Shown here: in pieces, positions 34,806 to 50,296 of the stretch
How the letters are laid out: each line of letters begins with the position of its first letter
Numbering within the stretch: the stretch's first letter is position 1
Assembly (NCBI GenBank): GCA_951812955.1
Contig: OX638340.1
Span: 3,488,001 to 3,552,000, forward strand
Source of the DNA: an uncultured Gemmatimonadota bacterium
Lineage (GTDB): Bacteria; JAAXHH01
Length of the DNA stretch: 64,000 bases
Direction: 5' to 3'
Notes under the pieces: model-generated
Database searches by the model: none
The model's input: only the letters and a program-made list of their open reading frames with translations
What the model was told of the DNA's origin: nothing
Position numbers and translations under genes: made by a program

Positions 34806-36014
34806 ATGGCTGATGATCGACCTGACAGTGCAGGATCCGACTTCGACGGCTCCGGCGGCGAACGCCTGACTTATGAAAGTTCCGGTGTGGATTACGACCG
34901 GATAGATCCGCTGAAGGTCCTCGCCCAGCGCGCGGCGCGGGACACGGGGGCCAACCTCGACGGCGCGGGCGCCCGCGAGGTGGCGGCCAGCCGTGGGGAG
35001 TCGGCGTACGTGGTGGACATCGGCGACGCCTATCTCGCCTCCATCACCGAATGCCTGGGTACCAAGGCCCTGGTGGCGGACGCGATGTGTGAGGCGTCGA
35101 GTGTATTGAGGGCGTCAGAGGAGTCGGAGGAGTCAAAGGCGTCGGAGGCGTCGCGAAGGACCTGGTACGACCACATCGCACAGGACACCATCGCCACGGC
35201 CGTCAACGACATTGTCACCGTGGGCGCCCGGCCCCTGAGCATCCACGCCTACTGGGCGGCCGGTTCGTCGGACTGGTTCGACGACGTGGAACGCATGAAC
35301 GACCTGGTCGAGGGATGGAAGGCGGCCTGCGACGTCCTGGGCGTGGCCTGGGGCGGCGGCGAGACGCCGTGCCTGACGGGCGTGGTGGAGGAAGGCGCCA
35401 TCGACCTGGCCGCGTCCTGCGTGGGCATCATCCGGCCTAAATCACGCCTCACCCTGGGCGAAGACCTCAGCGCCGGGGACGCGATCATTCTCCTGGAAAG
35501 CAGTGGCATTCACGCCAACGGCCTCACCCTCGCGCGCAAGCTGTCCGAACGGCTGCCGGAGGGCTATGCCACCCTCCTGCCCGGCGGCCGGACGTACGGC
35601 GTGGCGCTGCTCGACCCGACCGTGCTCTACCCTCCCGTTACCGAAGCGGCCTTCGCGGCCGGTATCGACCTGCGCTACATCGCCAACATCACCGGCCACG
35701 GATGGCGCAAGATCATGCGACACCCCGGCAGGTTTACCTACCGCATTACCGAAGTGCCCCCCGTTCCCGAGGTGCTGAAGTTCATGGTGGATGAGACCCA
35801 ACAGACCGCGGAAGAAGCCTATGGCAGCCTCAACATGGGCGCCGGCTTCGCCCTCTTCGTCCGCCCGGAAGACGGGGACGCGGCCGTGGCGTGCGCCGAG
35901 ACCGAAGGCATCCGCGCTTGGGTCGCCGGCGTGGTGGAAGATGGCCCCCGCCAGGTGGTCATCGAGCCGCTGGGCGTTACGCTCGCCGGGGAAAGCCTCG
36001 CCCTGCGGGACTGA
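34806..36014 (+). CDS. AIR-synthase-related (PurM-like) protein
   Basis: The pattern SGVDYDRIDP..., DTIATAVNDIVTVGARPL, GGGETP, ESSGIHANGLTLARKL and ITGHGWRKI parallels PurM-family motifs. It may not be canonical purM. Confidence 0.55.
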   Translation: MADDRPDSAGSDFDGSGGERLTYESSGVDYDRIDPLKVLAQRAARDTGANLDGAGAREVAASRGESAYVVDIGDAYLASITECLGTKALVADAMCEASSVLRASEESEESKASEASRRTWYDHIAQDTIATAVNDIVTVGARPLSIHAYWAAGSSDWFDDVERMNDLVEGWKAACDVLGVAWGGGETPCLTGVVEEGAIDLAASCVGIIRPKSRLTLGEDLSAGDAIILLESSGIHANGLTLARKLSERLPEGYATLLPGGRTYGVALLDPTVLYPPVTEAAFAAGIDLRYIANITGHGWRKIMRHPGRFTYRITEVPPVPEVLKFMVDETQQTAEEAYGSLNMGAGFALFVRPEDGDAAVACAETEGIRAWVAGVVEDGPRQVVIEPLGVTLAGESLALRD

Positions 36015-36054
36015 GCCGCGGGCTGACTTCTCTGGTCGAATCCTCTATTCTCTA
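36001..36054 (+). repeat. Left copy of a ~40-55 bp direct repeat that brackets a 14.2 kb block
   Basis: ccctgcgggactgag [ccgcgggctgacttc] tctggtcgaatcctctattctct. Compare 50244-50296. Confidence 0.6.
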
Positions 36055-36060
36055 CGATTC

Positions 36061-36433
36061 TATAATCCAGCGTAACTCAGTGCTTTTAACCATACGGAAC
36101 CGCTGATCGACTCGGTTGTTCGGTCGAGAGGTATCGTTTGAGTCCGTTGAACGTACGATCACGTTGAAAATGGTGTCGCTCTGGATGCTTACGAGACTGT
36201 TTTCGACCTTGAACGAGTCTGGAACGAGCCGCTTTGCCCTTCGTCCGCATAGGCCTTGTCACCGTAGATCGCCTTCCCTGGACGGTCAGTTTTATTGACG
36301 CGGACTTCGCGGGGCATTGACACCTGCCTGGGTTGACCTTGTCGAAAGCCCGGATCTGCCACGAATCCCGCTTTACTACCGTCAGTAAGACTTAGTACCC
36401 CCTCCCCTAATATACTGTACGCGCCCTATCCGT
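36061..36433 (-). pseudogene. Decayed IS5-like (DDE_Tnp_1-type) transposase relic
   Basis: The minus-strand reading GAYSILGEGVLSLTDGSKAGFVADPGFRQGQPRQVSMPREVRVNKTDRPGKAIYGDKAYADE contains an AIYGDKAY DDE-like motif. After frameshifts and stops it continues ..NNRVDQRFRMVKSTELRW (R.VE..F...K tail-like). Confidence 0.45.
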
Positions 36434-49000: not shown

Positions 49001-50176
49001 GAGATCGATCCCGACAGGACGTTGGACTCCGCGCTCGGTATCGCCGGCCGCATCCCCGAGACGGGAAGGATTACGCCGGATGTGCGAGAGCTTCCGACCT
49101 TCGATCTGACGCTGATCCCTTTTTTATGGACAGAAGGTCCCGATCATTCCGTGTTGTCCGCAATCGAAGGGCTCACGCCGGAATCCGATCTGATGCGGCC
49201 GACCCGAGATCTGCTGCCGGTGAGCGACTTCCAGTTGTCGGTGCACGCGCCGGTATGGACTTCAGTGGATCCCGTATCCGATAACGTAGGCGATCTCGGA
49301 CCCGAATTGGAGGCCATCTATGCCCTTGAAGGAGAAACAGGCTACTATATGGGCATCTTCAGACTGGCCGGACCGCAGGGCGGACTACTGGGGATAGCTC
49401 AGGATATACCCAGCTACTTGAGTTTCTCCATCCTCGATCCTTACGTCATTGCACATGAACTGGGGCACAACCTGAATCTCTATCATGCGCCATGCGGCGG
49501 TGCTCGCGGCCCCGATCCGTTCTACCCATATGGGGATGGTTCCATTGGGGTTTCCGGATACGATATGATGAATGAATCCCTGGTGAGTCCGCAAACCTGG
49601 GACCTGATGAGTTATTGCGAACCGATGTGGATCAGCGACTATTCCTTTTCCAGGGCGTTGAGCCATCGAATCGCGCTGGGCGCTACGATCCCGCCGGCTT
49701 TTGCGGCCGTCACGAGAGGCCTGCTGGTCTGGGGGGGTCTGGACGAAGCCGGGGAACTCACCCTCGAGCCCGCCTTTGTAGTTGACGCGCCGCTTAAGCT
49801 GCCGGAATCCGATGGTCCGTATACCATCAGGGGAGAGCGCGAAGACGGCAGCAATCTGTTCTCACTTTCCTTTGCCATATCGGAATACGCCGATACCGAG
49901 GGAGGATCCTTCGCTTTCATTGTCCCCGTGCGGGAGACCTGGCCCGGAAACCTGCACCGTATAACGCTTTCCGGTCCCGGGGGGTTTGCCGAGATCGACG
50001 GAGACGGGGACCGTTACATGGCGCTCATGCGGGACAGCGTAACCGGCGAGGTCAGAGGCATTCTCAGAGACTGGCCTGATCCATCGGATACCTCGGCAGC
50101 GGGCCGGCGTATCCCGCCCGAACCCGGGATGGAAATAACAGTCAGCGGTGGTGTTCCCGATCGGGATTCGTGGTAG
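46064..50176 (+). CDS. Giant lipoprotein (1370 aa): four capped LRR modules and a C-terminal metzincin-type protease domain
   Basis: Lipobox [17 protein letters not shown]. N-caps are [40 protein letters not shown] and three more, and each module is capped (for example [28 protein letters not shown]). The C-terminal domain runs from ~48700 with [11 protein letters not shown] and DLMSYC. Confidence 0.92.
   Translation: [1370 protein letters not shown]
49454..49486 (+). other. Zinc-binding motif [11 protein letters not shown]
   Basis: cat gaa ctg ggg cac aac ctg aat ctc tat cat, in frame with 46064-50176. Confidence 0.8.
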
Positions 50177-50243
50177 TATCAGCGCTTCGGCTAACTGAGT
50201 CTGCACACGTCAGAAGCCACGCACCCGGCCTTCGAACCCGCCA

Positions 50244-50296
50244 CCCTGCGGGACTGAGTCTGGGTTGAATCCTATTGTATCTCCCCGGCTGACTCC
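50244..50296 (+). repeat. Right copy of the direct repeat bracketing the 14.2 kb block
   Basis: ccctgcgggactgag tctgggttgaatcctattgtatct ccccggctgactcc. The 15-mer is identical to 36001-36015. The next 24 nt match 36031-36053 with a few mismatches. The ggctgact segment is permuted relative to the left copy. Confidence 0.6.

What the first reader, a model, noticed from the sequence alone, without database searches (positions are those of the whole stretch)
36001..50296. A ~40-55 bp direct repeat brackets a 14.2 kb block containing three giant genes and two IS relics
36001-36053 overlaps the last codons and 3' flank of the PurM-like gene and reads ccctgcgggactgag...tctggtcgaatcctctattctct. 50244-50296 reads ccctgcgggactgag tctgggttgaatcctattgtatct ccccggctgactcc. 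The two share an exact 15-mer followed by a ~24-nt segment with only a few mismatches. A ggctgact-containing piece is permuted between the copies. Both are on the same strand, 14,243 nt apart. The block between them holds the IS5-like relic, the frameshifted LRR-CARDB-PPC gene, a lipoprotein, the rve relic and the two LRR-metzincin genes. An IS1595-like relic lies just beyond the right copy. This is the geometry of attL/attR or a duplicated target around an inserted island. No integrase remains.
Basis: partly seen in the sequence, partly recalled or inferred. Interest (0 to 1): 0.6.

Follow-up and report, generated by a model that had tools for sequence, protein, structure and literature searches.

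The report
Target duplication flanking an LRR-gene insertion
The short repeat is real: it marks both edges of a 14-kb patchwork of leucine-rich-repeat genes inserted just after a conserved PurM-like gene in an uncultured Gemmatimonadota-like bacterium. It is an ordinary insertion scar with no sign of an active mobile element.

Summary
CCCTGCGGGACTGAG occurs exactly twice, at 36001 and 50244 on the + strand. Weaker, partly permuted similarity follows each copy.

Statistics within the window are marginal. Comparison with relatives decides the case.
- In 13 related genomes and one metagenome contig, the PurM-like gene is followed within about 70-330 nt by the ortholog of the small ORF at 50577.
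- No relative has the 14.2-kb block.
- The left copy is PurM's working end plus about 40-50 nt of the ancestral downstream spacer.
- The right copy is a 15-nt relic of the PurM end. It sits at the ancestral distance in front of the complete spacer and the conserved leader.
- One 1.6-kb metagenome contig shares the left junction.

The block is a mosaic:
- an LRR-metalloprotease gene pair that lies in other contexts in relatives;
- a lipoprotein gene copied from another conserved locus;
- an IS3 relic.

I found no integrase or tRNA gene. The IS5-like relic is unconfirmed, and the IS1595-like relic is not supported.

Sister genomes show local duplications of 32, 102 and 344 nt around inserted genes at other positions in this interval. 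I therefore favour recombination-borne duplication of target sequence over a fixed attL/attR site, but the mechanism is not resolved. Interest is modest.

The parts
34806..36014 (+). PurM-like (AIR-synthase-related) gene, the conserved target gene
   Evidence: AIRS and AIRS_C domains. Syntenic orthologs at 79-91% amino-acid identity in related loci.
36001..36015 (+). Left 15-mer: the last four codons, the TGA stop and one further base of the PurM-like gene
36016..36065 (+). Left, partial copy of the ancestral post-PurM spacer. It holds the GGCTGAC unit (36016-36030) and the TCTGGTCGAATCC box (36031-36053). Its end is approximate, at 36055-36069.
   Evidence: Local alignments to relatives' spacers give p < 0.0005 for L027 and 0.001-0.002 for L011, L013 and L014. 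See also alignment A1.
36066..36601 (.). Degenerate non-coding stretch at the left end of the insert. It holds a 92-nt repeat (36093-36184, also at 40585-40676) and an LRR-gene upstream module (36337-36475, also at 2218-2354).
   Evidence: Repeats. Shared with L037 as far as 36191. No transposase hit.
36602..39482 (+). LRR-Big_2-CARDB ORF (36602-38980) plus a PPC ORF (38910-39482) in another frame. This is probably one frameshifted gene.
39744..40473 (+). Lipocalin-like lipoprotein gene (39785-40336) with short flanks. In relatives the ortholog sits in a different conserved locus, DUF6702-lipoprotein-Peptidase_M1.
40761..40919 (+). Relic of the C-terminus of an IS3-family (rve) transposase
   Evidence: NF033516 positions 322-369 of 369, E 1.5e-5. 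tblastn hits to IS3 transposases.
41083..46005 (+). LRR-Big_2 gene with an M66-like metalloprotease C-terminus (1640 aa)
   Evidence: Domains. Colinear with L061 at 78-79%.
46064..50176 (+). Second LRR / M66-like metalloprotease gene (1370 aa). Homology to copies in other genomes stops at its stop codon.
50177..50243 (.). 67-nt spacer between the last insert gene and the right repeat. It resembles nothing else examined.
50244..50258 (+). Right 15-mer: a relic of the PurM end at the ancestral position
50259..50340 (+). Right, complete copy of the post-PurM spacer. It holds TCTGGGTTGAATCC at 50259, CCCCGGCTGAC at 50284 and the T-rich box at about 50321.
50341..50828 (+). Conserved leader box (CGAGAT..ATCTCCGACTAA) and the small coiled-coil membrane ORF 50577-50828. 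In relatives these directly follow PurM.

Best explanation
What is shown: the repeat is a duplication of target sequence at the two junctions of an approximately 14.2-kb lineage-specific insertion. The insertion lies between the PurM-like gene and a conserved small-ORF cluster.
- The right copy is the displaced original PurM end: its last 15 nt including the stop codon. It is still joined to the complete ancestral spacer and leader.
- The left copy is PurM's functional end followed by the first 40-50 nt of a second version of that spacer.
- So roughly 55-70 nt around the stop codon is present twice.
- The insert is a mosaic built in several steps: an LRR-metalloprotease pair, an LRR-CARDB-PPC gene, a relocated lipoprotein gene and an IS3 relic. 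It is now immobile.

What is inferred: the first insertion came from recombination with incoming or local DNA that already carried a copy of the PurM-end region. That could be a Campbell-type single crossover or a homology-facilitated illegitimate join. It was not a transposase cut or a dedicated integrase acting on a fixed core.
For: Empty sites:
- PurM is followed within about 70-330 nt by the ortholog of ORF 50577 in L002, L003, L004, L005, L007, L008, L009, L010, L011, L012, L020, L032 and L034, and in metagenome contig L058.
- No relative has the block.

Junctions:
- BLAST homology of most empty-site loci with the left side ends at 36014-36026; L011 reaches 36055.
- Local alignments carry significant spacer homology to about 36055-36065.
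- On the right, homology resumes by 50317.
- The 15-mer sits 80 nt before the leader box, against 48-98 nt in relatives.
- L037 shares the occupied left junction through to 36191 at 88% identity.

Mosaic insert:
- The lipoprotein segment 39744-40473 is 80% identical to a gene that sits in a different conserved locus in L059 and L060.
- The LRR pair 41064-50175 is colinear with L061 in another context. Homology stops at the stop codon.
- An IS3 relic is present.

Against a fixed att site:
- L009 has 102-nt (96%) and 32-nt copies of the PurM end around two other LRR genes.
- L003 has a 344-nt duplication of leader plus small ORF around 1.2 kb of other genes. That duplication does not include the PurM end.
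- L007 has a 92-nt tandem duplication starting at the PurM stop.
- LRR modules elsewhere lack PurM fragments.
- There is no integrase or tRNA gene.

Inference on origin: identity is a perfect 15 of 15 where both parents were coding, but weak in the spacer. That fits two diverged versions of the region better than an in-place duplication that then decayed evenly.
Against: - No donor molecule and no second junction in a relative was seen.
- The right copy holds only 15 nt of PurM sequence with a sharp left edge. That is short for RecA-type recombination and looks like an att core.
- A test for a recombination breakpoint at the SelA/PurM boundary found none. L016 stays the closest relative on both sides.
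- Similarity between the two spacer copies is only marginally significant.
- The spacer contains degenerate GGGNCTGAG-like units that blur alignments.
Confidence: 0.5

Rival explanations
1. This is a true attL/attR pair. An integrase-borne island integrated site-specifically into the 3' end of the PurM-like gene with CCCTGCGGGACTGAG as the crossover core. The element supplied a replacement gene end and spacer mimic. The integrase and the original island content were later lost or overwritten.
For: - A perfect 15-nt core with sharp edges and unrelated upstream flanks.
- The insertion sits at the 3' end of a conserved gene and the gene is kept intact.
- The empty site places the junctions at the repeat.
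- In L009, three copies of the PurM end all lose similarity right after CCCTGCGGG.
Against: - No integrase or recombinase in the block or anywhere in the 64 kb.
- The block is a mosaic.
- Homologous LRR modules in L061-L063 have no PurM-end fragment at their borders.
- The duplications in L003 and L007 at the same interval do not use this core.
- The PurM-derived part differs in length between cases: 15, 32 and 102 nt.
Confidence: 0.2
2. The two copies come from an older local tandem duplication of the PurM-stop and spacer region, like the one in L007. Unrelated insertions of IS elements and LRR genes later landed between the copies and pushed them 14 kb apart. On this reading the repeat was not made by the insertion.
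For: - L007 carries a 92-nt tandem duplication that starts at the PurM stop codon with nothing in between.
- L010 and L034 carry tandem duplications of the leader plus small ORF.
- The spacer is built of slippage-prone degenerate units.
- The insert grew in several steps.
Against: If both copies started identical, the non-functional right 15-mer should have decayed as much as the neighbouring spacer. It is 15 of 15 identical while the spacer is barely alignable. No relative shows the exact intermediate.
Confidence: 0.15
3. The repeat is a chance match or a dispersed REP-like repeat with no relation to the block's borders.
For: A handful of unrelated long-range exact 15-mer pairs occur in this window. 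Alignment statistics for the pair are marginal.
Against: - Only two copies exist in the window, and one per related locus, always at the PurM stop.
- The right copy sits in the roughly 100-nt interval where the ancestral PurM end is expected.
- Both flanks are independently homologous to relatives' post-PurM spacers.
Confidence: 0.04

Closest known systems
Genomic islands integrated at the 3' end of a conserved gene and flanked by attL/attR direct repeats (tyrosine-recombinase type)
   Same: The insertion is absent from relatives. It sits at the 3' end of a conserved gene, which stays intact. Direct repeats derived from the target lie at both junctions, and the cargo consists of lineage-specific surface or secreted proteins.
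   Different: There is no integrase and no tRNA gene. The cargo is a mosaic. The cargo module lies in other genomic contexts without these repeats. The repeat beyond the 15-nt core is diverged and permuted.
Campbell-type or homology-facilitated illegitimate recombination insertions (one homologous anchor, duplication of the anchor region), as I recall them from work on natural transformation
   Same: A stretch of target sequence is duplicated at both sides of foreign DNA. Sister loci show variable length and position of the duplicated stretch (32, 102 and 344 nt). No dedicated enzyme gene is needed.
   Different: The donor is not identified. Only 15 nt of the coding part is retained on the right, which is short for a homologous crossover.
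IS or composite-transposon insertions with target-site duplications
   Same: IS debris (an IS3 relic) lies inside the block. IS110 and DDE_3 genes lie next to homologous LRR modules in L061 and L062.
   Different: There are no flanking IS copies and no inverted terminal repeats. The duplication, at 15 nt or more plus spacer, is far longer than a transposase-made duplication.
Expanded leucine-rich-repeat 'eukaryotic-like protein' gene families of host-associated bacteria
   Same: Large, paralogous LRR genes appear at several spots of the PurM-to-RDD interval in different genomes. Several related MAGs carry names that, from memory, belong to sponge or coral metagenome studies.
   Different: This item describes the cargo, not the repeat. 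I tested nothing about host interaction.

Membership tests
Integrase-type genomic island (attL/attR) | The block is absent from related genomes at the same site (an empty site exists) | tested here: met
   13 genome loci plus L058 have PurM directly followed by the small-ORF leader.
Integrase-type genomic island (attL/attR) | Direct repeats identical to the target lie exactly at both junctions | tested here: met
   The 15-mer is at 36001 and 50244. Homology to empty sites ends and resumes at or next to the two copies.
Integrase-type genomic island (attL/attR) | A tyrosine or serine recombinase gene lies inside the element, usually next to one att site | tested here: not met
   All block ORFs and all large ORFs of the window were scanned and none is a recombinase. 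Only an IS3 C-terminal relic was found.
Integrase-type genomic island (attL/attR) | The element recurs as a unit, with the same att core, in other genomes | tested here: not met
   The LRR pair occurs in L061, L062 and L063 in other contexts without PurM-end fragments. The lipoprotein gene comes from another locus.
Integrase-type genomic island (attL/attR) | Excision gives a circular form and a restored attB | not testable with these tools
   This needs reads from the source sample.
Transposon or IS insertion with target-site duplication | A short duplication (about 2-14 bp) flanks terminal inverted repeats or IS copies | tested here: not met
   No inverted copy of the terminal sequences was found. 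The duplication is 15 nt or more plus spacer. No intact IS is present.
REP/BIME-like dispersed intergenic repeat | Many copies are scattered in intergenic regions of the genome | tested here: not met
   There are two copies in 64 kb and one per related locus, always at the PurM stop. The rest of the genome was not available.
Recombination-borne (Campbell / homology-facilitated) insertion | A duplicated stretch of local sequence brackets the insert, with length and position varying between events | tested here: met
   The stretch is about 55-70 nt in the window, 102 and 32 nt in L009 and 344 nt in L003 at a different position.
Recombination-borne (Campbell / homology-facilitated) insertion | One copy of the duplicated stretch is of donor origin, or a recombination tract is detectable in the flank | tested here: inconclusive
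   Identity profiles across SelA, PurM and the right flank show no clear switch of nearest relative. Contigs of the closest relatives end inside PurM.

The most novel reading that the evidence does not exclude
The stop-codon region of the PurM-like gene may be a recurrent, sequence-specific capture site for LRR effector genes in this lineage. It would be used by a recombinase encoded elsewhere in the genome. The window (15 nt) and L009 (32 nt and 102 nt) would then record independent captures whose similarity always breaks right after CCCTGCGGG.
Probability: 0.12. Interest if true: 0.55.

Novelty: new member of a known kind. Interest (0 to 1): 0.3.

Why it matters
This gives a clean, base-level example of how large leucine-rich-repeat genes are added to a conserved housekeeping neighbourhood in an uncultured, probably host-associated lineage. 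It also shows that the PurM-to-RDD interval is a repeatedly used insertion hot spot. That helps in reading strain variation and assembly breaks at this locus. It does not reveal a new kind of mobile element.

Tried and rejected
- Exact-protein look-ups for the PurM-like gene, ORF 50577, the lipoprotein and P0001 found no contig. The source genome and its population could therefore not be read.
- The IS5-like relic was tested with Pfam on X-masked six-frame translations, with NCBIfam and with two tblastn searches against plasmids. None gave a hit. A first Pfam call failed because of stop codons.
- Rfam found nothing in 35800-51600. RNAalifold found no consensus structure in the conserved leader.
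- I tested whether PurM plus the block was imported by a one-sided crossover, using a switch of nearest relative between SelA and PurM. At the DNA level L016 is closest on both sides, so there is no support. The earlier amino-acid figures had misled me because of PurM's variable N-terminus.
- Alignment scores with cheap gaps and a global identity measure were uninformative, because shuffles scored as high.
- I checked whether the PurM-derived part of the right copy extends upstream of 50244. It does not, at 9 of 21 in register and p about 0.09.
- I considered the TCTGG..GAATCC box as an IS terminal repeat. I rejected this because there is no inverted copy and the box aligns with relatives' ancestral spacer.
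- The tandem repeats reported downstream of PurM in L001, L013, L014 and L027 are 21-nt coding repeats in small coiled-coil ORFs, not spacer duplications.
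Full report
**1. Observation**

CCCTGCGGGACTGAG occurs exactly twice in the window, at 36001-36015 and 50244-50258. Both copies are on the + strand and 14,243 nt apart. Bases 36012-36014 are the TGA stop of ORF 34806..36014, a 402-aa protein with AIRS and AIRS_C domains.

After the left copy comes CCGCGGGCTGACTTC and then TCTGGTCGAATCCTCTATTCTCT. 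After the right copy comes TCTGGGTTGAATCCTATTGTATCT and then CCCCGGCTGACTCC.

**2. Is it more than chance?**

From the window alone, only marginally.
- A gap-penalised local alignment of the two 500-nt neighbourhoods recovers just the 15-mer. It scores 30, and the best shuffle scores 31.
- A handful of unrelated long-range exact 15-mer pairs occur in the window.
- Similarity of the 60 nt downstream gives p about 0.05 against shuffles and 0.01-0.016 against other 60-mers of the window.
- The upstream flanks are unrelated (p 0.77; 9 of 21 in register).

**3. Comparative evidence**

A scan of one genome per species with the PurM-like protein returned 36 loci. About 22 of them are syntenic. Their record titles call them uncultured Gemmatimonadota, Gemmatimonadetes or 'Latescibacterota' MAGs. 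More distant homologs of the LRR-metalloprotease are named Candidatus Palauibacter, a Gemmatimonadota order described in PMC10469786.

Empty sites:
- In L002, L003, L004, L005, L007, L008, L009, L010, L011, L012, L020, L032 and L034, the PurM gene is followed within about 70-330 nt by the ortholog of the 83-aa ORF at window 50577-50828.
- After that come the RDD-family ORF, the MR_MLE gene and the M14 peptidase, in the same order as window 51.5-56 kb.
- The remaining syntenic loci have another small coiled-coil ORF at that place.
- No relative has the block next to PurM.
- Metagenome contig L058 is a further empty site. It is 93% identical to window 35851-36025 and 87% identical to window 50565-52687, with 160 nt of spacer between.
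- By parsimony the empty state is ancestral.
- Metagenome contig L037 is colinear with window 34786-36191 at 88% identity. It shares the occupied left junction, so the insertion predates the split of these two lineages.

**4. Junctions**

BLAST homology of most empty-site loci with the left side ends at 36014-36026. L011 reaches 36055.

Stricter local alignments show that window 36015-36075 is significantly similar to the spacer that follows PurM in relatives. The values are p < 0.0005 for L027 and 0.001-0.002 for L011, L013 and L014. The aligned stretches reach about 36055-36065.

On the right, homology to empty sites resumes by 50317. Window 50258-50340 is significantly similar to the spacers of L009 and L008.

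The conserved box (T-rich stretch, then CGAGAT..ATCTCCGACTAA) begins 48-98 nt after the PurM stop in 11 relatives. It begins 80 nt after the right-hand 15-mer in the window.

The right copy is therefore the old PurM end, still in front of its complete spacer and leader. The left copy is the functional PurM end plus the first 40-50 nt of another version of the spacer. About 55-70 nt around the stop codon is present twice.

The motif is not a dispersed repeat. In 9 related loci it occurs once per locus, at the PurM stop. The TCTGG..GAATCC box has no further copy on either strand, in the window or in the 36 genome loci (L001-L036) held at that point.

The finding passes both of the refutation tests its author set.

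**5. What the block is**

- Pfam confirms an LRR-Big_2-CARDB ORF and an overlapping PPC ORF in another frame.
- Pfam also confirms two LRR genes with weak Peptidase_M66 matches.
- An IS3-family transposase C-terminus relic lies at about 40761-40919. It matches NF033516 positions 322-369 of 369 at E 1.5e-5.
- The 'IS5-like relic' at 36.0-36.6 kb gave no hit in Pfam, NCBIfam or tblastn. What I can show there is a 92-nt repeat (36093-36184, also at 40585-40676) and an upstream module shared with the LRR gene at 2.5 kb.
- The supposed IS1595-like relic beyond the right copy is not supported. Window 50829-51210 is 90% identical to L058, is conserved in eight other loci, and codes a small ORF.

The block is a mosaic.
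- Window 39744-40473 (the lipoprotein gene) is 80% identical to a gene that in L059 and L060 sits between DUF6702 and Peptidase_M1 genes.
- Window 41064-50175 (both LRR-metalloprotease genes), plus part of the CARDB region, is colinear at 75-82% identity with L061. There the segment lies between a CARDB ORF and a Tricorn-like gene.
- Copies at 72-74% identity lie next to NHL and HupE genes in L062 and L063.
- In all three, homology stops at the stop codon of the second gene.
- None of these other copies has a PurM-end fragment nearby.
- There is no tRNA gene. No integrase or recombinase was found among the block's ORFs or the other large ORFs of the window.

**6. The same interval in sister genomes**

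LRR genes have entered the PurM-to-RDD interval at other positions in L003, L004, L009, L011 and L015.
- L009 carries a 102-nt copy (96% identical) of the PurM 3' end at 14315-14416 and a 32-nt copy at 11567-11598. Together they bracket one LRR gene and precede another. All three PurM-end copies lose similarity just after CCCTGCGGG.
- L003 carries a 344-nt duplication (85% identical) of leader plus small ORF around 1.2 kb that codes two small secreted proteins. This duplication starts after the PurM stop.
- L007 has a 92-nt tandem duplication beginning at the PurM stop codon with nothing inserted.

Inserted DNA bracketed by a duplicated piece of local sequence is thus a recurring pattern here. 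The duplicated piece differs in length and position between cases.

**7. Mechanism**

Shown: this is an insertion with duplication of target sequence at its borders, the insert is a mosaic, and no recombinase is present.

Inferred: the duplication is far too long for a transposase-made target duplication. The contrast between the perfect 15-mer and the barely alignable spacer speaks against a duplication in place that then decayed evenly. The 15-mer was coding sequence, and so conserved, in any parental genome. The contrast fits two already diverged versions of the region being brought together.

Two routes could do that:
- recombination with DNA that carried a PurM-end flank (a Campbell-type single crossover, or a homologous anchor plus an illegitimate join);
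- an integrative element whose attP mimics the gene end.

I prefer the first route, at about 0.5. My reasons are that the sister-locus duplications vary in length and position, the cargo module has no such ends elsewhere, and no recombinase is seen.

The att reading keeps about 0.2, because of the sharp 15-nt core and the shared break point in L009. A pre-existing tandem duplication later split by insertions keeps about 0.15. Chance is effectively excluded.

A test for a recombination tract, looking for a switch of nearest relative between SelA and PurM, was negative.

**8. Comparison with known kinds, and verdict**

The feature works like the border repeats of a genomic island at the 3' end of a conserved gene. 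It fails two defining features of integrase-type islands: a recombinase gene, and recurrence as a unit with the same core. I therefore do not file it as one.

It is a new example of a known kind: a variable region or insertion hot spot with target-derived flanking repeats. Interest is modest at 0.3. It could rise if reads showed excision at the 15-mer, or if PurM-end fragments turned out to flank LRR cassettes widely in the clade.

Noticed in passing
window 50321-50404: A conserved DNA box lies upstream of the small ORF: a T-rich stretch, then CGAGAT-N9-10-ATCTCCGACTAA. It is kept in 11 relatives, including distant ones where the downstream ORF differs. Rfam gave no hit and RNAalifold found no consensus structure, so it is more likely a promoter or operator than an RNA.
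   Followed up: partly
window 50468-50564: About 97 nt between the conserved leader and the start of ORF 50577 are absent from the relatives' leaders (L007, L011). Origin unknown.
   Followed up: no
window 50577-51502; L001 11578-11740; L013 11329-11537: There are three tandem small ORFs, each with a transmembrane segment and a coiled coil (50577-50828, 50927-51166, 51209-51502). In L001, L013, L014 and L027 the ORF at this position carries arrays of 21-nt coding repeats. L003, L010 and L034 have duplicated copies.
   Followed up: partly
L009 11040-11141, 11567-11598, 14315-14416: Three direct copies of the PurM 3' end (the native one, a 32-nt copy and a 102-nt copy at 96% identity) bracket one LRR gene and precede an LRR-metalloprotease gene. 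Similarity ends just after CCCTGCGGG in all three.
   Followed up: partly
L003 11256-11587 and 12804-13147: A 344-nt direct duplication (85% identical) of leader plus small ORF flanks 1.2 kb that codes two small secreted or lipoprotein-like ORFs.
   Followed up: partly
window 39744-40473; L059 9960-10670; L060 9987-10528: The block's lipocalin-like lipoprotein gene is a copy of a gene that in relatives lies in a conserved DUF6702-lipoprotein-Peptidase_M1 neighbourhood. In L059 a 1640-aa LRR gene has entered that other locus too.
   Followed up: partly
window 41064-50175; L061 3431-11949; L062; L063: The tandem LRR-metalloprotease pair recurs in at least two other genomic contexts in relatives. 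IS110 or DDE_3 transposase genes lie nearby. Homology ends exactly at the stop codon of the second gene.
   Followed up: partly
window 36093-36184 and 40585-40676; 36337-36475 and 2218-2354: Short non-coding modules are repeated upstream of different LRR genes at 71-75% identity. This suggests that LRR genes are copied together with their upstream regions.
   Followed up: no
L016, L041, L044, L037 (contig ends): Contigs of the four closest relatives all end inside or just after the PurM-like gene. That would fit strain-level heterogeneity or repeats at this locus in the source metagenomes.
   Followed up: no
window 14815-20364 (- strand) and 2537-11454: A 1849-aa ORF carries internal tandem repeats of about 350 nt (repeat families D11, D17 and D19). 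A 2410-aa LRR gene is built of 72-nt units. A low-GC stretch (0.45-0.50) at 22-24 kb holds an outer-membrane beta-barrel ORF.
   Followed up: no
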